Sequence record: PP129558
Source of the DNA: Escherichia phage vB_EcoM_01
Direction: 5' to 3' (one strand)
DNA: 64,000 bases
In this document: positions 3,990-54,174 of the stretch, one piece after another
How positions within the stretch are numbered: the stretch's first letter is position 1
How the letters are laid out: each line of letters starts with the position of its first letter
Notes under the pieces: generated by a model
Databases searched by the model: none
What the model was told of the DNA's origin: nothing
The model's input: only the letters and a program-made list of their open reading frames with translations
Position numbers and translations under genes: made by a program

Positions 3990-5124
3990 TTAAAATTCTC
4001 CTCAATAAAAAGGGGCCGAAGCCCCTAGTTTCATCACATCTTGCAAGCTTCACAACCACCATCAGAATCTTCTTGTGCTAAAGAGTCTGCTGATTTTGTT
4101 CTACTATTAAGGTAATACAATGANNNNNNNNNNNNNNNNNNNNNNNNNNNNNNNNNNNNNNNNNNNNNNNNNNNNNNNNNNNNNNNNNNNNNNNNNNNNN
4201 NNNNNNNNNNNNNNNNNNNNNNNNNNNNNNNNNNNNNNNNNNNNNNNNNNNNNNNNNNNNNNNNNNNNNNNNNNNNNNNNNNNNNNNNNNNNNNNNNNNN
4301 NNNNNNNNNNNNNNNNNNNNNNNNNNNNNNNNNNNNNNNNNNNNNNNNNNNNNNNNNNNNNNNNNNNNNNNNNNNNNNNNNNNNNNNNNNNNNNNNNNNN
4401 NNNNNNNNNNNNNNNNNNNNNNNNNNNNNNNNNNNNNNNNNNNNNNNNNNNNNNNNNNNNNNNNNNNNNNNNNNNNNNNNNNNNNNNNNNNNNNNNNNNN
4501 NNNNNNNNNNNNNNNNNNNNNNNNNNNNNNNNNNNNNNNNNNNNNNNNNNNNNNNNNNNNNNNNNNNNNNNNNNNNNNNNNNNNNNNNNNNNNNNNNNNN
4601 NNNNNNNNNNNNNNNNNNNNNNNNNNNNNNNNNNNNNNNNNNNNNNNNNNNNNNNNNNNNNNNNNNNNNNNNNNNNNNNNNNNNNNNNNNNNNNNNNNNN
4701 NNNNNNNNNNNNNNNNNNNNNNNNNNNNNNNNNNNNNNNNNNNNNNNNNNNNNNNNNNNNNNNNNNNNNNNNNNNNNNNNNNNNNNNNNNNNNNNNNNNN
4801 NNNNNNNNNNNNNNNNNNNNNNNNNNNNNNNNNNNNNNNNNNNNNNNNNNNNNNNNNNNNNNNNNNNNNNNNNNNNNNNNNNNNNNNNNNNNNNNNNNNN
4901 NNNNNNNNNNNNNNNNNNNNNNNNNNNNNNNNNNNNNNNNNNNNNNNNNNNNNNNNNNNNNNNNNNNNNNNNNNNATTAATTGCTGCCATTTAAAATTCT
5001 CCTCAATAAAAAGGGGCCGAAGCCCCTAGTTTCATCACATCTTGCAAGCTTCACAACCACCATCAGAATCTTCTTGTGCTAAAGAGTCTGCTGATTTTGT
5101 TCTACTATTAAGGTAATACAATGA
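3973..5124. other. assembly gap: N run 4125-4975 flanked by identical ~150-bp sequence (3973-4124 = 4973-5124)
   Basis: Flanks are identical and each contains the nrdA stop, a terminator hairpin and the nrdB start; uncollapsed contig-end overlap. ORFs 4034..4990 and 4120..4980 are artefacts. Confidence 0.9.
5005..5027 (-). terminator. intrinsic terminator-like hairpin between nrdA and nrdB (duplicated at 4005-4027)
   Basis: Minus-strand RNA reads AGGGGCTTCGGCCCCT followed by TTTTTAT; GC stem with TTCG loop. Confidence 0.5.
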
Positions 5125-21351: not shown

Positions 21352-22003
21352 TTCTTTTTGCTCCTCTTTTTAGATTTCTCATACAAACCTAACACAGCCG
21401 CTTCTTTTGCACAAGTAGGAACTGAAGTCATTCCTCTTCTTTTTGCTTCTGGCAGTTGCAAAGTCCATATTCNGTCTCTTATNNNNNNNNNNNNNNNNNN
21501 NNNNNNNNNNNNNNNNNNNNNNNNNNNNNNNNNNNNNNNNNNNNNNNNNNNNNNNNNNNNNNNNNNNNNNNNNNNNNNNNNNNNNNNNNNNNNNNNNNNN
21601 NNNNNNNNNNNNNNNNNNNNNNNNNNNNNNNNNNNNNNNNNNNNNNNNNNNNNNNNNNNNNNNNNNNNNNNNNNNNNNNNNNNNNNNNNNNNNNNNNNNN
21701 NNNNNNNNNNNNNNNNNNNNNNNNNNNNNNNNNNNNNNNNNNNNNNNNNNNNNNNNNNNNNNNNNNNNNNNNNNNNNNNNNNNNNNNNNNNNNNNNNNNN
21801 NNNNNNNNNNNNNNNNNNNNNNNNNNNNNNNNNNNNNNNNNNNNAGAGACAGCTTTTACACACTTCAGGAAAGTCTTGATCATTTCTTTTTGCTCCTCTT
21901 TTTAGATTTCTCATACAAACCTAACACAGCCGCTTCTTTTGCACAAGTAGGAACTGAAGTCATTCCTCTTCTTTTTGCTTCTGGCAGTTGCAAAGTCCAT
22001 ATT
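21331..22003. other. assembly gap: N run 21481-21844 flanked by ~140-bp duplicated sequence
   Basis: Flanks near 21331-21473 and 21861-22003 are identical, with ambiguous bases beside the Ns; ORFs made of X codons are artefacts. Confidence 0.9.
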
Positions 22004-37488: not shown

Positions 37489-38862
37489 ATGGCAACTTTT
37501 CGTGAAAAGGTAGCAACCGTAACTTTACTGTATGGTGCTACATCAATTCGTGAAACCCAGTTTGATATTCCCCTGATCCTTACAGGTCAGAACGTAACTG
37601 GCGAAGCGATTCAATATTACTCTTCTTCCGATGCACTTTTGGAAGCAGGTTATGGATTAAATGATCCAGCGTATATTATGGCAGTCAAACTGTTTAACGG
37701 TTTGTTCCCACCAGATCAAGTCATGGTTGGTAAGCGTGAAGTTACAAACTTTACTCTAACTCCAATCGTAGAAGATAGTGCAACTTACACAATTACCATC
37801 AAAAATGGTACCAAGAAAAAAGAATTTAAATTCATTGCTGATGACACTGCAACTGCACAAGAGATTGTAGTTGGTCTGACTGAAATGATCAATGCAGATC
37901 TTGTTTATGGTCCACTGTTTACAGTAGCTAACAACGGCGCTGCAATGACTTTCACTCCAGTAGAAGGTAAGTTTGGTTCTATTGACAGCACAGGTTTCAC
38001 TCAAGAAACTGTCTATGCTAATGCTATTACGGAAGATATTGCTGCTCTGCATGATATTGATAGTAGCTGGTTCTGGACCCTTTCAGATTCCCATGAAACA
38101 GAAGATGTTCTAGCTTTGGCTGCATGGGTAGAAGAGAATGATAAAGTTTACTTCTTCTCTAGCTCTGAACCTGGAATTAAAACGAAAGCAGAAGATAACG
38201 TTCTGGAACGACTGAATGACCTCGGTTATAATAACACTTGCTTTGCTTTGTGGATGACCGATGCAGATTCTGTATTCCCAGAAGCGGCAGTTGTTGGTGC
38301 AATCTGTTCTCGTCAACCTGGTTTAACTACTCTTCACGGTAAAACACTGGTAGGTGTAGAGATCGAGAAACTGGATCAGACTTCGGAAAACAATATTGTT
38401 CAACAGAACGGTAACATCTATCGTAAAGAGCATGGAACTCTGTTCTATCGTGATGGATTGATGGTTAGCGGTTTCTTTGTTGACTATGTTGTTCATGCTT
38501 TGTGGTTTAAAGCTCGCACAGAAGAATCACTGTTTACACTGTTTAAACAACAATCTATGCTGGGTGGTGGCGTTCGTGCTACTTCAAACGGTCTGGCTTT
38601 GATTCGACAAGCTGTTCTGGCTAACCCGATCCAAGTAGGTATCCTCAACGGTTCCATCGCTAATGAAGTTGTTACTTCTGAAGAGACTGGTTTGCGTGTC
38701 GATCTGAAACCTATTGTTTATATTCCTTCTCGTGCCGATATGACTGATGCGCAAATCAATGCTCGTCTGGTCGATGGGATGAAGATTGAATATGTTTACG
38801 CTGGCTTCTTCCATTACGTTAAAGTTCAGGTCAACGTCCTGACTAACCGTACTGCAAACTAA
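37489..38862 (+). CDS. tail sheath protein (putative)
   Basis: 457 aa; strongly biased codon usage; sheath-tube-chaperone-tape measure gene order. Confidence 0.55.
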   Translation: MATFREKVATVTLLYGATSIRETQFDIPLILTGQNVTGEAIQYYSSSDALLEAGYGLNDPAYIMAVKLFNGLFPPDQVMVGKREVTNFTLTPIVEDSATYTITIKNGTKKKEFKFIADDTATAQEIVVGLTEMINADLVYGPLFTVANNGAAMTFTPVEGKFGSIDSTGFTQETVYANAITEDIAALHDIDSSWFWTLSDSHETEDVLALAAWVEENDKVYFFSSSEPGIKTKAEDNVLERLNDLGYNNTCFALWMTDADSVFPEAAVVGAICSRQPGLTTLHGKTLVGVEIEKLDQTSENNIVQQNGNIYRKEHGTLFYRDGLMVSGFFVDYVVHALWFKARTEESLFTLFKQQSMLGGGVRATSNGLALIRQAVLANPIQVGILNGSIANEVVTSEETGLRVDLKPIVYIPSRADMTDAQINARLVDGMKIEYVYAGFFHYVKVQVNVLTNRTAN

Positions 38863-38888: not shown

Positions 38889-38908
38889 CAAAATAAAGAG
38901 GATTTATA

Positions 38909-39388
38909 ATGGATAAAATGCTTACTGGCGTAATGGCCTACGACCCATCTCAAGTTATCCTTTCATTAGGTGGTTGGGAACCGTGGGGTTTTGCGGCTGA
39001 TACTAAAATCGTTATTGCTAAATCTAACGATATTATCAACCCTTATTCAGGGACTGATGGCGACGTTTCACTAGCTTTGAGTCGTAACCGTTTGGGAACA
39101 CTCACCATGTCTTTGCAACGCACATCTCCAGCTAACGAAGTACTTGCAACATATGCACAAACAATGTATTCTACTCGTCAAGTAGCGTTCAGTGTTTACT
39201 TGGAAGACCCACGTGGCTATTACATTAGCACGATTGGATGGATTCAAAGTCAGCCTGAAGATACTATTGGCGAAATGATTACAGAGAACCAATGGGTTAT
39301 TGGTCTTAAAGATGCAAGCCTTCTGCGTAATGAAGTTGGTGTAGGTTTGAGCACCCTTAACTCAATCTCTGCTCTGACAATTCAATAA
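38909..39388 (+). CDS. tail tube protein (putative)
   Basis: 159 aa; immediately downstream of the sheath; terminator follows. Confidence 0.45.
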   Translation: MDKMLTGVMAYDPSQVILSLGGWEPWGFAADTKIVIAKSNDIINPYSGTDGDVSLALSRNRLGTLTMSLQRTSPANEVLATYAQTMYSTRQVAFSVYLEDPRGYYISTIGWIQSQPEDTIGEMITENQWVIGLKDASLLRNEVGVGLSTLNSISALTIQ

Positions 39389-39394
39389 TAAATA

Positions 39395-39416
39395 AAGGGC
39401 AGAAATGCCCTTTTTA
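39395..39416 (+). terminator. intrinsic terminator
   Basis: AAGGGCA-GAAA-TGCCCTT hairpin followed by TTTTTAT. Confidence 0.7.
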
Positions 39417-39433
39417 TCATTAGAGAGGAAAAT

Positions 39434-39916
39434 ATGTCACAAGAACAAGATAACACAATTCAAAAATATGCTCGACCAGAAGAAGTAGTTGAGATTCCGT
39501 TAGATGGAAACAGATCTGTTACTTTCCGTATTATGAAGTGGAGTCCATCTAAAGTGTTTGACAGGATTCCAGAATTGGGTAGTGTTCTGGTTGTTCCTAT
39601 GACTATGTATAGCACAGCAACAATGTCCGCAGACGAAGACCTTGAGTCACGTATTGCTATGGCACTGATCCAACTTTTTGCAGGTTTGGAAGAAAAGAAT
39701 TTAACTGTCTTTTTGCGTAAAATTTTAGATGAGGTTTATACTCAAGACGGTTATAACGTTGCAGAAAATTTTGATGAATTATTTATGGCTCACCCAGAAC
39801 TAGTGTTAGATCTTACGGCTAAAGTTCTGGAGGTAAACTACGGCCCTTTTTTCAAACGAGGTTTCGGAAAACTGTTCACACAGCTTCAGGCGATGACGAG
39901 TTTAGCAGCAAATTAA
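39434..39916 (+). CDS. tail assembly chaperone (G-like), zero-frame product
   Basis: 160 aa; sits between tube and tape measure; carries the slippery heptamer near its 3-prime end. Confidence 0.55.
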   Translation: MSQEQDNTIQKYARPEEVVEIPLDGNRSVTFRIMKWSPSKVFDRIPELGSVLVVPMTMYSTATMSADEDLESRIAMALIQLFAGLEEKNLTVFLRKILDEVYTQDGYNVAENFDELFMAHPELVLDLTAKVLEVNYGPFFKRGFGKLFTQLQAMTSLAAN

Positions 39917-40182
39917 CACCTGCGATTGAACATGCTATCGACACAGCAACGAAAACCCTTACTTTGAAGTGGTATGAGGTTATTCTTTGCAAAGTCGTTA
40001 AAGATACCTCGGAAACACTGAAAACATTGGATAACTACGGTGTAGATTATCTTTTAAAACTATATGAGTATTTAACATACGAAGAGTATGTTGAAGCCAT
40101 GTATGTTAAAGACACTTCAATAAAGAGAAAACATCAAAACCAGACAAATAAAATGTCAGATTTGTTTAAGAAACTTGTTTAA
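39434..40182 (+). CDS. tail assembly chaperone frameshift fusion (GT-like); -1 shift at 39847-39853
   Basis: The -1 frame from 39847 has no stop until 40182 and reads ...TLTLKWYEVILCKVV..., joining the downstream 72-aa ORF; predicted fusion about 250 aa. Confidence 0.5.
39847..39853 (+). other. programmed -1 ribosomal frameshift slippery heptamer T_TTT_TTC
   Basis: Heptamer is in the X_XXY_YYZ register of the zero frame (CCT TTT TTC); the -1 frame is open from here and runs in phase into ORF 39964..40182. Confidence 0.6.
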
Positions 40183-40202
40183 TCCAACACGAGGAACATA
40201 CT

Positions 40203-42191
40203 TTGTTAGAAATTAACGCCTCCAAAATTAGTAACGTGGTTACGTTTAAGGTGGACAAGAACAGTCTCAAGGAAGCAAAAGATGCCGTGTTGAGTGTTCA
40301 GAAGTTTGCAAATAAAATGCAACCCACTATGAACATGACCAAGTTTAGACAACAAATGAAAGAGATTGAGCGTGAACTTAAGAAAGCTCAAACTCAAAGT
40401 CAAAAACCTATGCGAGCACCTACTCCCGCTGGAGCGGGTGCTCCTGTAGGAGGATCTGGTAGACCTAGAACTCCTAAAACCCCGCAAGGAAGAGAAGAAG
40501 AAAAAGCTCGTAAAGCTGCTGAACGCGAAGCTAAAGCAGCAGCACGTAGGGAAGATTTAGGTAATCTTCGTTTGCAGAACTTTAACTACAGAGCAAGAGC
40601 ATTTAGTAAAGCCAGTCCTGGCGCTATGCAAGAAGCTAGAGACGTTATGGGTAAAGCTGTAGAGCAATACAAAAAGGGTGAAATAACTCTTCAACGTATG
40701 AACCAAGCTCTTGCTCACCAGTTAGATGCCTTACGCAGATCTCATCGTGAAAAGAATGCTGAAATAGAAGACGAGGTTCGCGGTCGTCGCCGTATTCGTA
40801 GAGAGCTAGAAGCAGAAGCTAAAATGCGTATACGTATGCGAAATCGTGAACTTAGAGATATAGAACGCAACCGTAAGCGTGAATTAGCTCAACAAAAACG
40901 TGATCGTGATCGTCGATATGGACAATTAAAAGAAGGTGCAGCAGGTCTTAATCCACGCATGATTGCATCCTCTTTAATAGGTGCTGGGCTGTTTGCAGGT
41001 GGTTCTGTAGTTGGTAACACGTTGATGAATACTAACGAAAGAATTAAACTTGTAAGTCGTGGTGCTGAAAACGTTCAGACAAACGCCAACGCTATTTTGG
41101 CAATGACAGCTTGGGGTGAACAGAACGGTGTAGACTCTGCAAATATTATTAAGTCAATAGATAATATTAAAGACGTTCGTGAACGTCTTGGTAATACAGT
41201 TTTAGCCTCAAAATGGAATGAGAAAGAAGGGAAGTGGAAAGGCGGTGATAATGGCATAAATGACATTATGAACTTGTTTGGATGGAATCCAGAACAGCTT
41301 AAACCTTTACAGAACGATCCTTTAGCTTTTATTCAGGCTACTGTTAATGAAGGTGAGCGTCGAGGTATGAACTCTGCTCAAATCGGGCGACTTCTTGAAA
41401 ACCTTGGTGATGACCTTATGCACTACCAACGTATGTTTAGTAAAAACGGCGAAGGGTATAATGAAGTATTGAAAATGCTTCAAAGAACAGGTGCAACATT
41501 AACTCAAGAACAAATAGATGCTTCTAAAGAGTTTACTCGTTTTGCTGCAACAGTTCAGCTTGTAGGTCAAGGTATGCAGAACCACTTCTTAGAGGGTTTT
41601 GTGAAAGCCTTACCTAAAGATGATTCTTGGTTGGATAACGTTAAAGTGCTAGATCAGTTTGCCAAAGATTTAGGTGAAGAACTCGGTAAGACAACAGTTC
41701 AATTAGGAGGTTTTGCTAAAGAATTGGGAGATGGTTTCGGATCTTTTACCAATTGGCTTAAAGAAACATTCCCAGATACATTCGGAGACAACACAGATCC
41801 TAATAAATCTATGGCACAAAAAGCATACGAGGCAACGCAAAGTGGAGACAGCAATCCTGTAGCAGATTGGTTGTACAATTTAACAGGTATTGATACACAA
41901 GATATTGGTCGTATGTGGAGAGGAGAACAAACAAGGACACGTGCTTTTGGATTTGGTAATCCTCTTGAAGATTTACGTGAATCAGCCTATACACCTAACG
42001 TAAGTTTGGCTCGTAATCAACCTGTTGTTGAGAATACGGTAGCAATACCAAGTGATCTTATCAAAGTTACGATCAGCCCTTCTTCCGAGTTTGGAAATAT
42101 TCTTGATGCAAGAATTCAAAATAGCGGAAATAGTATTTTCCAACGTTTGTCTCTTTCAACTCTAAGTGGACAATCTAACACTGGTGGTTAA
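40203..42191 (+). CDS. tail tape measure protein
   Basis: 662 aa; TTG start behind GAGGAA; long R/E/K/A-rich helical N-terminal region; follows the frameshifting chaperone. Confidence 0.7.
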   Translation: MLEINASKISNVVTFKVDKNSLKEAKDAVLSVQKFANKMQPTMNMTKFRQQMKEIERELKKAQTQSQKPMRAPTPAGAGAPVGGSGRPRTPKTPQGREEEKARKAAEREAKAAARREDLGNLRLQNFNYRARAFSKASPGAMQEARDVMGKAVEQYKKGEITLQRMNQALAHQLDALRRSHREKNAEIEDEVRGRRRIRRELEAEAKMRIRMRNRELRDIERNRKRELAQQKRDRDRRYGQLKEGAAGLNPRMIASSLIGAGLFAGGSVVGNTLMNTNERIKLVSRGAENVQTNANAILAMTAWGEQNGVDSANIIKSIDNIKDVRERLGNTVLASKWNEKEGKWKGGDNGINDIMNLFGWNPEQLKPLQNDPLAFIQATVNEGERRGMNSAQIGRLLENLGDDLMHYQRMFSKNGEGYNEVLKMLQRTGATLTQEQIDASKEFTRFAATVQLVGQGMQNHFLEGFVKALPKDDSWLDNVKVLDQFAKDLGEELGKTTVQLGGFAKELGDGFGSFTNWLKETFPDTFGDNTDPNKSMAQKAYEATQSGDSNPVADWLYNLTGIDTQDIGRMWRGEQTRTRAFGFGNPLEDLRESAYTPNVSLARNQPVVENTVAIPSDLIKVTISPSSEFGNILDARIQNSGNSIFQRLSLSTLSGQSNTGG

Positions 42192-42198
42192 TAAAATA

Positions 42199-42220
42199 CC
42201 TCGCTTCGGCGGGGTTTTTT
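42199..42220 (+). terminator. intrinsic terminator after the tape measure gene
   Basis: CCTCGC-TTCG-GCGGGG hairpin followed by TTTTTT. Confidence 0.7.
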
Positions 42221-42228
42221 CGTTTCCC

Positions 42229-42258
42229 TTGACACGAAGTTTCTATATGTGTTACAAT
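42229..42258 (+). promoter_or_regulatory. sigma70-like promoter (TTGACA-N18-TACAAT)
   Basis: Consensus -35 and near-consensus -10; followed by a GGAAGAT/ATCTTCC hairpin in the 5-prime UTR. Confidence 0.5.
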
Positions 42259-42317: not shown

Positions 42318-43019
42318 ATGGCAGCAATGACTCCACAACAGTCGGTGAGAGCCGTCTATAAGGCAGAACAGGAAATCAACTCTACCGAGAATAAAAATAC
42401 CTCGGCATCTACTGTAAAGGGTGATAATGGTTTCTGCATTTTAGCAAGTGTTTATAATAGTTCAAGTGATCAATACATTCAAAACTTTAAAGCAATTACT
42501 TTCGATTCGGTCCCTGAAGTAGGTGTAACTCGTGAGGCAGATGTTACAAGTTTTCCAGTAGAATCAGGATCGGATGTAAGTGACCACGTTCAAATAAAAA
42601 ACAACAGATTTAAACTTTCAGGTATAATTACCGAAACACCAATTCGGCTTATGCGAGATCAATTATACAGTGCAGGTGTAAATGGGGCAAGGATTTCTCA
42701 AGCAATAGAATATCTAGATCAAATATTTGAGTCAAGACAACCAATAGTTCTTTTGACAGAACACAGGACTTTTGAAAATGTTATTCTCAAAGGCTACTCT
42801 TATGATTATAAATCTGAATTTGCTATGCAATTTGATTTAGAGTTTGAACAAATCCGTCTCGTTTCTAAGGCCACTACTAATGCTATTGCTGTAAAAACAG
42901 CACCAAATAAATCGACTGGTGGTGATGTGAAAGGTCAAGTTGCTTCGAATGGTCCTAAGTCAGATATTACAGTAAGAACTGCTGAAGCTACTAATACCCC
43001 AACAAACAACGGAGGTTAA
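42318..43019 (+). CDS. hypothetical tail or baseplate protein
   Basis: 233 aa; first gene after the tape measure. Confidence 0.3.
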   Translation: MAAMTPQQSVRAVYKAEQEINSTENKNTSASTVKGDNGFCILASVYNSSSDQYIQNFKAITFDSVPEVGVTREADVTSFPVESGSDVSDHVQIKNNRFKLSGIITETPIRLMRDQLYSAGVNGARISQAIEYLDQIFESRQPIVLLTEHRTFENVILKGYSYDYKSEFAMQFDLEFEQIRLVSKATTNAIAVKTAPNKSTGGDVKGQVASNGPKSDITVRTAEATNTPTNNGG

Positions 43020-51328: not shown

Positions 51329-51336
51329 GAGTAAAA

Positions 51337-54174
51337 ATGTCAACTACAATTACTAATTTACCCGAAACATCAAAAGTTAATGATTCTGATTACCTGGTTT
51401 TAGACCAACCTGATAAGACTGTTAAAAGCACAGTTTCCAACTTTCTTACTGACACTGGGGTGGTTTTAGCCACCCAGTTGAAAGNNNNANNNGGGNCTGA
51501 GTTAATAGGACACAGAAACGCTACGGTTGGTGCCACTCTGGATTCAATTGCAGTCCGCTCAGATCAATTTTCTACTATTCAGGAATGGGCATCATACCCG
51601 GCAAAGAATAAAATTTTAGCGGAGGGTACTTATACTCTTGACTCAACTCNTNNNNGTGTTGAATGTGAATCACTAACCACTGAGGGTGTAGTTANNNNNN
51701 NNNNNNNNNNNNNNNNNNNNNNNNNNNNNNNNNNNNNNNNNNNNNNNNNNNNNNNNNNNNNNNNNNNNNNNNNNNNNNNNNNNNNNNNNNNNNNNNNNNN
51801 NNNNNNNNNNNNNNNNNNNNNNNNNNNNNNNNNNNNNNNNNNNNNNNNNNNNNNNNNNNNNNNNNNNNNNNNNNNNNNNNNNNNNNNNNNNNNNNNNNNN
51901 NNNNNNNNNNNNNNNNNNNNNNNNNNNNNNNNNNNNNNNNNNNNNNNNNNNNNNNNNNNNNNNNNNNNNNNNNNNNNNNNNNNNNNNNNNNNNNNNNNNN
52001 NNNNNNNNNNNNNNNNNNNNNNNNNNNNNNNNNNNNNNNNNNNNNNNNNNNNNNNNNNNNNNNNNNNNNNNNNNNNNNNNNNNNNNNNNNNNNNNNNNNN
52101 NNNNNNNNNNNNNNNNNNNNNNNNNNNNNNNNNNNNNNNNNNNNNNNNNNNNNNNNNNNNNNNNNNNNNNNNNNNNNNNNNNNNNNNNNNNNNNNNNNNN
52201 NNNNNNNNNNNNNNNNNNNNNNNNNNNNNNNNNNNNNNNNNNNNNNNNNNNNNNNNNNNNNNNNNNNNNNNNNNNNNNNNNNNNNNNNNNNNNNNNNNNN
52301 NNNNNNNNNNNNNNNNNNNNNNNNNNNNNNNNNNNNNNNNNNNNNNNNNNNNNNNNNNNNNNNNNNNNNNNNNNNNNNNNNNNNNNNNNNNNNNNNNNNN
52401 NNNNNNNNNNNNNNNNNNNNNNNNNNNNNNNNNNNNNNNNNNNNNNNNNNNNNNNNNNNNNNNNNNNNNNNNNNNNNNNNNNNNNNNNNNNNNNNNNNNN
52501 NNNNNNNNNNNNNNNNNNNNNNNNNNNNNNNNNNNNNNNNNNNNNNNNNNNNNNNNNNNNNNNNNNNNNNNNNNNNNNNNNNNNNNNNNNNNNNNNNNNN
52601 NNNNNNNNNNNNNNNNNNNNNNNNNNNNNNNNNNNNNNNNNNNNNNNNNNNNNNNNNNNNNNNNNNNNNNNNNNNNNNNNNNNNNNNNNNNNNNNNNNNN
52701 NNNNNNNNNNNNNNNNNNNNNNNNNNNNNNNNNNNNNNNNNNNNNNNNNNNNNNNNNNNNNNNNNNNNNNNNNNNNNNNNNNNNNNNNNNNNNNNNNNNN
52801 NNNNNNNNNNNNNNNNNNNNNNNNNNNNNNNNNNNNNNNNNNNNNNNNNNNNNNNNNNNNNNNNNNNNNNNNNNNNNNNNNNNNNNNNNNNNNNNNNNNN
52901 NNNNNNNNNNNNNNNNNNNNNNNNNNNNNNNNNNNNNNNNNNNNNNNNNNNNNNNNNNNNNNNNNNNNNNNNNNNNNNNNNNNNNNNNNNNNNNNNNNNN
53001 NNNNNNNNNNNNNNNNNNNNNNNNNNNNNNNNNNNNNNNNNNNNNNNNNNNNNNNNNNNNNNNNNNNNNNNNNNNNNNNNNNNNNNNNNNNNNNNNNNNN
53101 NNNNNNNNNNNNNNNNNNNNNNNNNNNNNNNNNNNNNNNNNNNNNNNNNNNNNNNNNNNNNNNNNNNNNNNNNNNNNNNNNNNNNNNNNNNNNNNNNNNN
53201 NNNNNNNNNNNNNNNNNNNNNNNNNNNNNNNNNNNNNNNNNNNNNNNNNNNNNNNNNNNNNNNNNNNNNNNNNNNNNNNNNNNNNNNNNNNNNNNNNNNN
53301 NNNNNNNNNNNNNNNNNNNNNNNNNNNNNNNNNNNNNNNNNNNNNNNNNNNNNNNNNNNNNNNNNNNNNNNNNNNNNNNNNNNNNNNNNNNNNNNNNNNN
53401 NNNNNNNNNNNNNNNNNNNNNNNNNNNNNNNNNNNNNNNNNNNNNNNNNNNNNNNNNNNNNNNNNNNNNNNNNNNNNNNNNNNNNNNNNNNNNNNNNNNN
53501 NNNNNNNNNNNNNNNNNNNNNNNNNNNNNNNNNNNNNNNNNNNNNNNNNNNNNNNNNNNNNNNNNNNNNNNNNNNNNNNNNNNNNNNNNNNNNNNNNNNN
53601 NNNNNNNNNNNNNNNNNNNNNNNNNNNNNNNNNNNNNNNNNNNNNNNNNNNNNNNNNNNNNNNNNNNNNNNNNNNNNNNNNNNNNNNNNNNNNNNNNNNN
53701 NNNNNNNNNNNNNNNNNNNNNNNNNNNNNNNNNNNNNNNNNNNNNNNNNNNNNNNNNNNNNNNNNNNNNNNNNNNNNNNNNNNNNNNNNNNNNNNNNNNN
53801 NNNNNNNNNNNNNNNNNNNNNNNNNNNNNNNNNNNNNNNNNNNNNNNNNNNNNNNNNNNNNNNNNNNNNNNNNNNNNNNNNNNNNNNNNNNNNNNNNNNN
53901 NNNNNNNNNNNNNNNNNNNNNNNNNNNNNNNNNNNNNNNNNNNNNNNNNNNNNNNNNNNNNNNNNNNNNNNNNNNNNNNNNNNNNNNNNNNNNNNNNNNN
54001 NNGGTTATCTATGATAAGGAGACGCAAAGGGCGTATTCCCTACCTGCTGATATTGCCCCAGGTACTACTGCCATTAGTCTTAGTGCTGCTGTACTTGTGC
54101 ATTCGGCGGGTTCTGTAGACCTTGGGGAATTAGCTGTATCTTGTGATTTAAAAAGTAATGAGAACACACTATGA
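51337..54174 (+). CDS. tail fibre protein interrupted by an assembly gap
   Basis: N-terminus MSTTITNLPETSKVNDSDYLVLD is fibre-like; the interior is an N run, so length and frame continuity are unknown. Confidence 0.35.
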   Translation: MSTTITNLPETSKVNDSDYLVLDQPDKTVKSTVSNFLTDTGVVLATQLKXXXGXELIGHRNATVGATLDSIAVRSDQFSTIQEWASYPAKNKILAEGTYTLDSTXXXVECESLTTEGVVXXXXXXXXXXXXXXXXXXXXXXXXXXXXXXXXXXXXXXXXXXXXXXXXXXXXXXXXXXXXXXXXXXXXXXXXXXXXXXXXXXXXXXXXXXXXXXXXXXXXXXXXXXXXXXXXXXXXXXXXXXXXXXXXXXXXXXXXXXXXXXXXXXXXXXXXXXXXXXXXXXXXXXXXXXXXXXXXXXXXXXXXXXXXXXXXXXXXXXXXXXXXXXXXXXXXXXXXXXXXXXXXXXXXXXXXXXXXXXXXXXXXXXXXXXXXXXXXXXXXXXXXXXXXXXXXXXXXXXXXXXXXXXXXXXXXXXXXXXXXXXXXXXXXXXXXXXXXXXXXXXXXXXXXXXXXXXXXXXXXXXXXXXXXXXXXXXXXXXXXXXXXXXXXXXXXXXXXXXXXXXXXXXXXXXXXXXXXXXXXXXXXXXXXXXXXXXXXXXXXXXXXXXXXXXXXXXXXXXXXXXXXXXXXXXXXXXXXXXXXXXXXXXXXXXXXXXXXXXXXXXXXXXXXXXXXXXXXXXXXXXXXXXXXXXXXXXXXXXXXXXXXXXXXXXXXXXXXXXXXXXXXXXXXXXXXXXXXXXXXXXXXXXXXXXXXXXXXXXXXXXXXXXXXXXXXXXXXXXXXXXXXXXXXXXXXXXXXXXXXXXXXXXXXXXXXXXXXXXXXXXXXXXXXXXXXXXXXXXXXXXXXXXXXXXXXXXXXXXXXXXXXXXXXXXXXXXXXXXXXXXXXXXXXXXXXXXXXXXXXXXXXXXXXXXXXXXXXXXXXXXXXXXXXXXXXXXXXXXXXXXXXXXXXXXVIYDKETQRAYSLPADIAPGTTAISLSAAVLVHSAGSVDLGELAVSCDLKSNENTL
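51485..54002. other. assembly gap: scattered ambiguous bases (51485-51655) and N run 51695-54002
   Basis: Runs of n in the sequence; the ORFs across it on both strands are artefacts. Confidence 0.95.

What the first reader, a model, noticed from the sequence alone, without database searches (positions are those of the whole stretch)
39434..40182. Programmed -1 frameshift in the tail assembly chaperone
A T_TTT_TTC heptamer in the correct zero-frame register lies 21 codons before the stop of the 160-aa chaperone ORF. The -1 frame from that point is open and continues in phase into the downstream 72-aa ORF, predicting a G/GT-type product pair as in other tailed phages. It is conserved biology rather than novel, but it confirms the tail module assignment and is often missed by gene callers.
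Basis: partly seen in the sequence, partly recalled or inferred. Interest (0 to 1): 0.4.

Follow-up and report, generated by a model that had tools for sequence, protein, structure and literature searches.

The report
Tail chaperone -1 frameshift site
This phAPEC8-like E. coli phage carries the well-known programmed -1 ribosomal frameshift of phage tail assembly chaperone genes, which makes a short and a long protein from one gene. It is ordinary biology, but no public record I examined for this phage group annotates it.

Summary
T_TTT_TTC lies at 39847-39853 in the zero-frame register of the 160-aa chaperone ORF (39434-39916). That ORF matches Pfam PF21822 Phage_TAC_15 and sits between the tail tube and tape measure genes of a Phapecoctavirus (99.7% identical to phAPEC8). 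The -1 frame opens 8 codons upstream of the heptamer and runs 109 codons to 40182. The predicted products are G (160 aa) and GT (249 aa, junction ...NYGPFF|QTRFR...).

Comparative evidence is strong:
- All 60 homologous loci with the FF motif, from 11 named genera, keep NNT TTT TTC.
- Third-position entropy is zero only at those three codons.
- Two divergent relatives have other canonical heptamers at nearly the same spot (G_GGA_AAG and A_AAT_TTT).
- The annotated 72-aa ORF has no Shine-Dalgarno sequence, and its TTG start lies inside the conserved T domain.

Citrobacter phage Moogle has the homologous site, and it is already annotated there. A 2025 paper proposes the same frameshift for two related families. 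This is therefore a new member of a known kind. Its value is in annotation, not in concept. Translation of GT has not been shown experimentally.

The parts
39434..39916 (+). Gene G: tail assembly chaperone, zero-frame product of 160 aa. The SD sequence GAGGA lies at 39425-39429.
   Evidence: ORF and translation. Pfam PF21822 Phage_TAC_15, E = 1.3e-23, residues 29-143. phrog_3840 'tail assembly chaperone', E = 2.8e-55. SD duplex -6.4 kcal/mol. AlphaFold model: pLDDT 74, folded to about residue 141, tail 141-160 below 50.
39847..39853 (+). Slippery heptamer T_TTT_TTC in zero-frame register (codons F139 and F140, plus the third base of P138).
   Evidence: It is invariant in 60 of 60 homologous loci with the FF motif, and third-position entropy is zero only at these three codons. 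U_UU.U_UU.C belongs to the high-efficiency E. coli class H_HH.U_UU.Y (PMC4066793).
39844..39850 (+). Overlapping second heptamer C_CCT_TTT. Slipping here gives the identical fusion protein.
   Evidence: It is present in all Pro-containing (Stephanstirmvirinae-type) loci and absent in Cys-containing (Vequintavirinae-type) loci.
39853..40182 (+). The -1 frame extension (T part): 109 codons plus a stop. The predicted GT product is join(39434..39853, 39853..40182), 249 aa.
   Evidence: Alignment A4 shows an invariant RFR just after the shift, then a variable linker, then a conserved domain with invariant A28, A32, L38 and W40. In the relatives with the FF heptamer the -1 frame is open for 101-127 codons after it and for only 3-23 codons before it.
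39964..40182 (+). The 72-aa ORF as annotated (phAPEC8 gp105, 'hypothetical protein'). I read it as the C-terminal fragment of GT, not an independent gene.
   Evidence: The TTG start has no SD (duplex +0.1 kcal/mol, against -5.5 to -10.2 for most neighbouring genes). Conserved residues lie upstream of this start. Called starts of homologues are inconsistent. It matches phrog_16039, function unknown.
39829..39833 (+). GGAGG, 13 nt upstream of the heptamer. It is a possible dnaX-like Shine-Dalgarno-type stimulator (hypothesis only).
   Evidence: GGAGG occurs in 7 of 29 distinct contexts, including Moogle at the same spacing. A 4-nt GGAG or GAGG occurs in 15 more, and 7 have none. The pattern is confounded by the Leu-Glu-Val/Ile codons.
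40203..42191 (+). Tape measure protein gene (662 aa, TTG start with SD). It is the expected client of G/GT.
   Evidence: phrog_16051, E = 0. Annotated in phAPEC8. SD duplex -5.9 kcal/mol.
38909..39388 (+). Tail tube protein gene (159 aa). By analogy with lambda gpV, it is the expected binding partner of the T domain.
   Evidence: PF11681 KPP10_Orf10, weak match. phrog_280. Annotated as tail tube in relatives.
39394..39413 (+). Terminator-like hairpin followed by a T run, between the tube gene and G.
   Evidence: Annotated as a putative terminator in phAPEC8.

Best explanation
The region encodes a tail assembly chaperone expressed as two proteins through a programmed -1 ribosomal frameshift.

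Most ribosomes translate 39434-39916 and make G (160 aa). A minority slip back one nucleotide. They do so with tRNA-Phe in the P site (UUU) and A site (UUC) on U_UUU_UUC (39847-39853), or one codon earlier on C_CCU_UUU. Both tRNAs re-pair to codons they can still read. Translation then continues in the -1 frame from CAA at 39853 to the stop at 40180-40182. The result is GT (249 aa), which shares the first 140 residues with G and carries a 109-residue T extension.

The function is inferred by analogy with lambda gpG/gpGT (PMC5009743). The shared G domain would coat the tape measure protein (40203-42191). The T domain would recruit the tail tube protein (38909-39388), so that the tube, and then the sheath, polymerise to the measured length. 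Neither protein would remain in the virion.

What is shown here: the anatomy, its departure from chance, membership of the chaperone family, and purifying selection on the heptamer and on the -1 frame protein. What is inferred: that ribosomes actually shift, how efficiently they do so, and which proteins bind which.
For: 1. Register and open frame are exact and far from chance.
2. PF21822 Phage_TAC_15 matches residues 29-143, so the domain ends at the shift site. The AlphaFold model (pLDDT 74) is ordered to about residue 141 and disordered after it.
3. Gene order is sheath, tube, G, T, tape measure.
4. Sixty loci keep NNT TTT TTC while flanking third positions vary by 0.2-1.9 bits. They comprise the window, 15 GenBank loci and 44 IMG/VR loci, and fall into 29-30 distinct sequence contexts. 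The named GenBank loci span 11 genera: Phapecoctavirus, Justusliebigvirus, Vequintavirus, Avunavirus, Seunavirus, Henunavirus, Mydovirus, Certrevirus, Plateaulakevirus, Mooglevirus and an unclassified Stephanstirmvirinae lineage. Chaperone identity falls to about 25-35%.
5. The heptamer has been replaced at the same place in two lineages: G_GGA_AAG in Rheinheimera phage Barba18A and A_AAT_TTT in Vibrio phage S4-7. Both sit inside the narrow window where the -1 frame is open.
6. The T part is a conserved protein, and its invariant residues begin upstream of the annotated TTG start.
7. That TTG has no SD, and no other start codon exists in the -1 frame between 39823 and 39964 apart from one ATT.
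8. The window's genes otherwise avoid T runs in Phe-Phe dipeptides: 10 of 37 start with TTT although TTT is 59% of Phe codons.
9. U_UU.U_UU.C and C_CC.U_UU.U are in the most shift-prone class in E. coli (PMC4066793).
10. GenBank KM236239 (phage Moogle) annotates a joined 'tape measure chaperone' across the homologous T_TTT_TTC.
Against: - There is no experimental evidence for the GT protein in this phage or in any Stephanstirmvirinae or Vequintavirinae phage in the literature I could search.
- No conserved downstream hairpin or pseudoknot was found. The fold z-score is -0.65 and the consensus structures are weak. There is no Rfam match. Efficiency may therefore be low, although lambda G-T also works at a low level.
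- The upstream GGAGG is only partly conserved.
- The single-sequence model of GT was uninformative, with pLDDT 41.
- The IMG/VR sampling used an amino-acid pattern containing FF, so it is biased toward loci with that motif. It is not biased toward their codon choice.
Confidence: 0.9

Rival explanations
1. Transcriptional slippage. RNA polymerase adds one extra U while copying the T6 run, and normal translation of the U7 mRNA yields the same GT protein.
For: The site is a homopolymeric run of six T. The product would be identical (...GPFFQTR...), so protein data cannot tell the two mechanisms apart. Slippage on A or T runs is used productively in bacteria (PMC5009743).
Against: Productive slippage in bacteria is described for runs of about 9 A or T (PMC5009743), and six is short. 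The conserved unit is exactly the register-specific heptamer NNT TTT TTC. Barba18A and S4-7 use G_GGA_AAG and A_AAT_TTT, which are ribosomal slippery heptamers and not homopolymers. The Vequintavirinae-type context is G TTTTTT C, with no lengthening of the run in any of the 60 loci.
Confidence: 0.04
2. Two separate genes. 39964-40182, or some other start in that frame, is translated independently as a small protein, and the heptamer is incidental.
For: This is how phAPEC8, phi92 and many other records annotate the region. An ORF with a TTG start exists. PHROGs holds it as a family of its own, phrog_16039.
Against: The TTG has no SD (+0.1 kcal/mol, against -5.5 to -10.2 for most neighbouring genes). 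Invariant residues A28 and A32, and the conserved segment 'PAI.HAI', lie upstream of that start. Annotated starts in relatives fall at inconsistent positions, including a CTG exactly at the heptamer in rV5, and several records leave the 287-nt stretch empty. The synonymous invariance of the heptamer and the narrow upstream opening of the -1 frame (3-23 codons) would be left unexplained.
Confidence: 0.04
3. Artefact or pseudogene. A single G-T gene is broken by a sequencing or assembly error, or by a mutation, in the homopolymer run.
For: Homopolymer runs are classic sites of indel errors.
Against: The same T6 run and frame arrangement occur in 127 GenBank records matching at the DNA level and in 44 independent metagenomic loci. 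No in-frame G-T fusion protein exists among 41 chaperone homologues, nor among 14 T-part homologues in 1.84 billion cluster representatives.
Confidence: 0.01

Closest known systems
Tape measure chaperone frameshift of FelixO1-like phages (Citrobacter phage Moogle, GenBank KM236239; Ounavirinae)
   Same: It is a homologous protein: PF21822, E = 7.5e-20. It has the same motif ...(E)(A/V)N(F/Y)G.FF, the same T_TTT_TTC heptamer in register, and even GGAGG 13 nt upstream. Its -1 extension of about 93 codons ends just before the tape measure gene. [quoted passage not shown]
   Different: It belongs to a different subfamily and has a smaller genome (88 kb). G is shorter (133 aa). The residue before FF is Ser, not Pro, so there is no overlapping C_CCT_TTT. 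tblastn at E <= 1e-3 did not retrieve it, so sequence identity to the window's G is too low for that search.
The -1 PRF proposed for tail assembly chaperones of Vandenendeviridae (Pakpunavirus, phage Adele) and Andersonviridae (PMC12846349, 2025)
   Same: The logic and evidence are the same: a conserved T-rich motif (GTTTTT) near the 3' end of TAC-N, a -1 frame open through a stretch annotated as 'hypothetical protein' or intergenic, and no experimental test. That paper finds these families related to Vequintavirinae and Stephanstirmvirinae.
   Different: That paper does not analyse the chaperone locus of Stephanstirmvirinae or Vequintavirinae. Here the register-specific heptamer is defined and its synonymous-site invariance is quantified.
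Lambda gpG/gpGT (Levin, Hendrix and Casjens 1993; Xu, Hendrix and Duda 2004, 2013, 2014)
   Same: Two products come from overlapping ORFs placed between the major tail (tube) gene and the tape measure gene. A -1 shift occurs at a heptamer near the end of G. The level is low and no elaborate stimulator is needed. The proteins are chaperones that are absent from virions (PMC5009743).
P2 gpE/gpE+E' (myovirus tail chaperone frameshift)
   Same: It is a contractile-tail phage with a -1 shift on a T-rich heptamer (T_TTT_TTG, from my own knowledge of Xu et al. 2004) upstream of the tape measure gene. The reported efficiency is 2-3-fold higher than in lambda (PMC5009743).
   Different: It belongs to different protein families (Pfam Phage_E and P2_GpE, from my own knowledge). 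Neither was matched here: only PF21822 scored.

Membership tests
Phage tail assembly chaperone, Pfam PF21822 (Phage_TAC_15) | Sequence match to the family profile above the curated cut-off | tested here: met
   84.3 bits against a cut-off of 22, E = 1.3e-23, residues 29-143 on profile positions 3-125 of 127. phrog_3840 'tail assembly chaperone', E = 2.8e-55.
G/GT-type frameshifted tail assembly chaperone pair (Xu, Hendrix and Duda 2004) | Gene position: immediately downstream of the major tail (tube) gene and immediately upstream of the tape measure gene | tested here: met
   Sheath 37489-38862, tube 38909-39388, G 39434-39916, T to 40182, tape measure 40203-42191.
G/GT-type frameshifted tail assembly chaperone pair (Xu, Hendrix and Duda 2004) | A canonical slippery sequence in the correct register near the 3' end of G, inside the overlap with an open alternative frame that extends to just before the tape measure gene | tested here: met
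   T_TTT_TTC at 39847-39853 is 20 sense codons before the stop. The -1 frame is open from 39823 to 40182, and 20 nt separate its stop from the tape measure start at 40203.
G/GT-type frameshifted tail assembly chaperone pair (Xu, Hendrix and Duda 2004) | Conservation of the arrangement and of the slippery site among diverged relatives | tested here: met
   60 of 60 loci with the FF motif keep the heptamer, with zero synonymous variation. Two further lineages carry substitute heptamers.
G/GT-type frameshifted tail assembly chaperone pair (Xu, Hendrix and Duda 2004) | Actual synthesis of both G and a G-T fusion protein, at a low GT:G ratio | not testable with these tools
   This needs mass spectrometry, a western blot or a reporter assay. 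No published data were found for this clade.
G/GT-type frameshifted tail assembly chaperone pair (Xu, Hendrix and Duda 2004) | The G domain binds the tape measure protein, the T domain binds the tail tube protein, and both are absent from virions | not testable with these tools
   Inferred from lambda only (PMC5009743).
Tail assembly chaperone fold (solved examples: HK97 2ob9, YqbN 3klu) | Structural similarity of a confident model to solved chaperones | tested here: inconclusive
   [not shown]
dnaX-type stimulated -1 PRF (upstream SD-like element plus downstream hairpin) | A conserved SD-like sequence 10-14 nt upstream and a stable hairpin 5-9 nt downstream of the heptamer | tested here: not met
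   GGAGG lies 13 nt upstream in the window but in only 7 of 29 distinct contexts, and 7 of 29 have no SD-like tetramer. The downstream fold has z = -0.65, and consensus folds have no supported helix in the right place. The site can still work as a plain slippery heptamer.

The most novel reading that the evidence does not exclude
In the Stephanstirmvirinae the site is a tandem double-slippery run, C_CCU_UUU_UUC. With the GGAGG 13 nt upstream, it would give ribosomes two consecutive chances to shift into the same frame. That would set a GT:G ratio markedly higher than the few percent of lambda and tuned to a contractile tail. More broadly, one homologous frameshift position would have been kept across at least five phage families or subfamilies, with the heptamer itself swapped (T_TTT_TTC, G_GGA_AAG, A_AAT_TTT). 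That would make it a natural series for measuring how heptamer identity sets chaperone stoichiometry.
Probability: 0.2. Interest if true: 0.4.

Novelty: new member of a known kind. Interest (0 to 1): 0.25.

Why it matters
The main value is in annotation. phAPEC8-like, phi92-like and rV5-like phages are widely isolated and used in phage-therapy work. Every record of theirs that I inspected either calls the T part a free-standing 'hypothetical protein' with an implausible start or leaves a gap of about 290 nt. PHROGs carries that fragment as families of unknown function. Recognising join(39434..39853, 39853..40182) removes a false small gene, assigns a function, and gives a correct target for engineering, because synonymous recoding of the tail module must not touch the T run.

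A secondary point is that the set of homologous loci with three different heptamers at one position offers a tidy comparative system for studying frameshift efficiency. It does not change any concept.

Tried and rejected
- **Downstream stimulatory RNA.** I folded 39854-39960 (z = -0.65) and ran RNAalifold on two sets of relatives. The only helices either include the slippery run itself or lack support, so I rejected this.
- **Rfam scan of 39300-40300.** It gave only sub-threshold sRNA noise.
- **Upstream SD-like stimulator.** It is present in the window but only partly conserved and confounded by the codons, so I kept it as a hypothesis only.
- **In-frame G-T fusions as orthogonal proof.** There are none among 41 homologues or 14 T-part homologues. 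This argues against a sequencing error but gives no positive proof of fusion.
- **P0045, a 3956-aa repeat protein that matched the T part.** The score is a sum over repeats of a weak chance similarity, so I rejected it.
- **Single-sequence AlphaFold of GT.** pLDDT was 41, so I did not use it.
- **Sequence search of the PDB with G and T profiles.** Nothing significant was found.
- **Literature searches for a report of this frameshift in phAPEC8, rV5, Stephanstirmvirinae or Vequintavirinae.** None was found. One hit (PMC13119998) concerned T4-like phages and was irrelevant.
- **A_AAT_TTT at 39766-39772.** The -1 frame there closes at 39820-39822, so it is not productive.

Full report
**What the window is.** The stretch 38900-40300 is 99.7-99.8% identical to Escherichia phage phAPEC8 and about 60 other Phapecoctavirus genomes (Stephanstirmvirinae). 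It is about 78% identical to phi92-like Justusliebigvirus genomes. The local gene order is:
- tail sheath, 37489-38862
- tail tube, 38909-39388
- a terminator-like hairpin, 39394-39413
- the 160-aa ORF, 39434-39916
- the 72-aa ORF, 39964-40182
- the 662-aa tape measure protein, 40203-42191, followed by a second terminator-like hairpin

**Checking the observation.** The sequence reads ...AAC TAC GGC CCT TTT TTC AAA CGA... in the frame of the 160-aa ORF. T_TTT_TTC therefore occupies 39847-39853 in the X_XXY_YYZ register, at residues P138 (third base), F139 and F140. Twenty sense codons and the stop follow.

The -1 frame has a stop at 39820-39822 and is then open from 39823 to the stop at 40180-40182. 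It contains the 72-aa ORF in phase. The +1 frame closes after 7 codons. A shift at the heptamer predicts join(39434..39853, 39853..40182), a 249-aa GT protein with the junction ...LEVNYGPFF|QTRFRKTV...

Because the -1 frame reads TTT across the run, shifting at either heptamer gives the same protein.

**Is it more than chance?** The window has 56 gene-like ORFs (16,469 codons; masked N runs excluded) and 68 in-frame X_XXY_YYZ heptamers.
- The -1 frame stays open after them for a median of 5.5 codons, with a 95th percentile of 46.
- The two heptamers here are the maximum, at 109 and 110 codons.
- The -1 frame of genes has a stop every 9.4 codons on average, so 110 open codons have a probability of about 4e-6.
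- T_TTT_TTC occurs in frame only here.
- Of 37 Phe-Phe dipeptides, only 10 start with TTT although TTT is 59% of Phe codons, and only one is T|TTT|TTC. The genome otherwise avoids such runs.

**What the proteins are.** The 160-aa product matches Pfam PF21822 (Phage_TAC_15) at E = 1.3e-23 over residues 29-143, so the domain ends at the shift site. It also matches phrog_3840, 'tail assembly chaperone'.

An AlphaFold model built on 26 homologues has a mean pLDDT of 74. It is ordered up to about residue 141, and the zero-frame tail (141-160) is below 50.
- Foldseek against BFVD returns annotated tail or tape measure chaperones, including that of phage Moogle.
- Foldseek against the PDB is not significant.

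The T part matches only families of unknown function. The best, phrog_16039, covers just residues 38-109, which is the truncated ORF as usually annotated.

**Comparative evidence.** I collected 16 GenBank loci and 44 IMG/VR loci encoding relatives of the chaperone.
- Every locus that has the ...N(Y/F)G.FF motif encodes it as NNT TTT TTC. That is 60 loci including the window, in 29-30 distinct sequence contexts. The named loci span Phapecoctavirus, Justusliebigvirus, an unclassified Stephanstirmvirinae lineage, Vequintavirus, Avunavirus, Seunavirus, Henunavirus, Mydovirus, Certrevirus, Plateaulakevirus and Mooglevirus.
- Third-position entropy is exactly zero at these three codons and 0.2-1.9 bits at all flanking codons.
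- In all of them the -1 frame is open for 101-127 codons after the heptamer and for only 3-23 codons before it.
- Two divergent relatives lack the FF motif and instead carry other canonical heptamers at nearly the same place, inside the open -1 window. Rheinheimera phage Barba18A has G_GGA_AAG and Vibrio phage S4-7 has A_AAT_TTT. Both are still PF21822 proteins.

Replacement of one slippery heptamer by another at a fixed position is what selection for frameshifting predicts. Selection for a particular sequence would not predict it.

**The -1 product is a real protein that needs the shift.** The alignment of the -1 products shows three segments: an invariant RFR immediately after the shift, a Ser/Gly-rich linker of variable length, and a conserved helical domain with invariant A28, A32, L38, W40, L68 and E72.

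The annotated TTG start of the 72-aa ORF is residue 38, inside that domain. The TTG has no Shine-Dalgarno complementarity (+0.1 kcal/mol). The starts of the neighbouring tail genes score -5.5 to -10.2, apart from 36795 at -2.1. No other ATG, GTG or TTG lies in the -1 frame between 39823 and 39964.

Public annotations of the homologous stretch disagree with one another. Starts are placed at different residues, rV5 has a CTG start exactly at the heptamer, and several RefSeq records have no gene there at all. Gene calls in metagenomes begin at query positions 1, 16, 30, 38, 40 or 45.

No in-frame G-T fusion exists among 41 chaperone homologues, nor among 14 T-part homologues in 1.84 billion cluster representatives. 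The split arrangement is therefore the maintained state, not an assembly error.

**Mechanism.** The best-supported reading is a classical simultaneous-slippage -1 PRF. E. coli tRNA-Phe reads both UUU and UUC, so after a one-base backward slip on U_UUU_UUC both the P-site and A-site tRNAs face UUU.

Sharma et al. measured all heptamers in E. coli and placed H_HH.U_UU.Y (H = U, C or A; Y = U or C) among the most efficient classes. They list U_UU.U_UU.C among motifs giving more than 0.1% frameshifting without stimulators, as under-represented in E. coli genes, and as used by IS elements (PMC4066793).

I found no conserved stimulatory structure downstream. A GGAGG lies 13 nt upstream in the window, in rV5 and in Moogle, a spacing compatible with dnaX-type stimulation. 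However, it is degenerate or absent in many relatives and is confounded by the Leu-Glu-Val codons, so it remains a hypothesis.

The overlap region encodes a disordered tail in the zero frame and a variable linker in the -1 frame. This keeps dual-coding constraints low (inference).

The function is inferred from lambda. There, G and the G part of GT coat the tape measure protein and the T domain recruits the tube protein. The ratio of about 30:1 is critical, and neither protein stays in the virion (PMC5009743).

**Rivals.**
- *Transcriptional slippage* on the T6 run would give the same protein. It is unlikely because productive slippage is described for runs of about 9 (PMC5009743), because the conserved unit is register-specific, and because relatives use non-homopolymeric heptamers.
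- *Independent translation of the small ORF* is contradicted by the missing SD, by the conserved residues upstream of the start, and by the unexplained synonymous constraint.
- *Sequencing error* is excluded by the large number of independent assemblies.

**Comparison with what is known.** The closest known case is the homologous site of FelixO1-like phage Moogle. It has the same Pfam family, the same T_TTT_TTC and the same upstream GGAGG spacing. It has been annotated as a joined 'tape measure chaperone' since 2015.

A December 2025 paper argues, on the same kind of comparative evidence, for a -1 PRF with a conserved GTTTTT motif in Vandenendeviridae and Andersonviridae. It notes that these families are related to Vequintavirinae and Stephanstirmvirinae but does not analyse the chaperone locus in those two subfamilies (PMC12846349).

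I found no paper and no GenBank record that reports the frameshift for phAPEC8-like, phi92-like or rV5-like phages.

**Verdict.** Both the observation and the interpretation are correct. This is a new, unannotated member of a thoroughly known kind. Its interest lies in annotation quality and, modestly, in the tandem heptamer and the series of heptamer replacements at one homologous position. Experimental proof is still missing.

Noticed in passing
window 4124-4975, 21483-21844, 51695-54002 (plus isolated N at 21473, 26175, 26177, 51485-51655): These are masked runs of N in the window. ORF statistics must exclude them, because an uncorrected scan reports spurious 'NNNNNNN heptamers' and a false long ORF at 51336-54174.
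   Followed up: partly
window 39394-39413 and 42198-42258: Terminator-like hairpins bracket the G/GT and tape measure unit. The second is followed by a near-consensus sigma-70-like promoter (TTGACA, 18 nt, TACAAT with an upstream TG; 42229-42258) ahead of the gene at 42318. This suggests the chaperone and tape measure genes are expressed at a lower level than the sheath and tube genes.
   Followed up: no
all gene-like ORFs of the window: Phe-Phe dipeptides avoid starting with TTT: 10 of 37, although TTT is 59% of Phe codons. This is consistent with selection against accidental slippery T runs.
   Followed up: partly
L064 (Rheinheimera phage Barba18A) 1530-1536 and 1832-2470; L015 (Vibrio phage S4-7) 1500-1506: The relatives have swapped the slippery heptamer. 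Barba18A has G_GGA_AAG, the lambda heptamer, and S4-7 has A_AAT_TTT. Barba18A also has an HNH endonuclease gene inserted on the opposite strand between the T ORF and the tape measure gene.
   Followed up: partly
GenBank MG065650, MG065645, MG065689, MG065652 and others (hits H8, H83, H84, H211): Records named 'Campylobacter phage', with host given as C. jejuni, are 99.6-100% identical in this region to E. coli Phapecoctavirus, Justusliebigvirus and rV5-like phages. The host labels look doubtful.
   Followed up: no
L003 (phi92, NC_023693) 986-1078: The RefSeq record annotates a 'hypothetical tRNA' inside the tail sheath coding sequence. It is probably a false prediction.
   Followed up: no
L007 (rV5, NC_011041) 1551-1919: rV5 gp050 is annotated with a CTG start placed exactly at the slippery heptamer, overlapping gp051 by 109 nt. 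This is in effect the T frame without the join. The rV5 paper does not mention a frameshift.
   Followed up: yes
[not shown]
   Followed up: no
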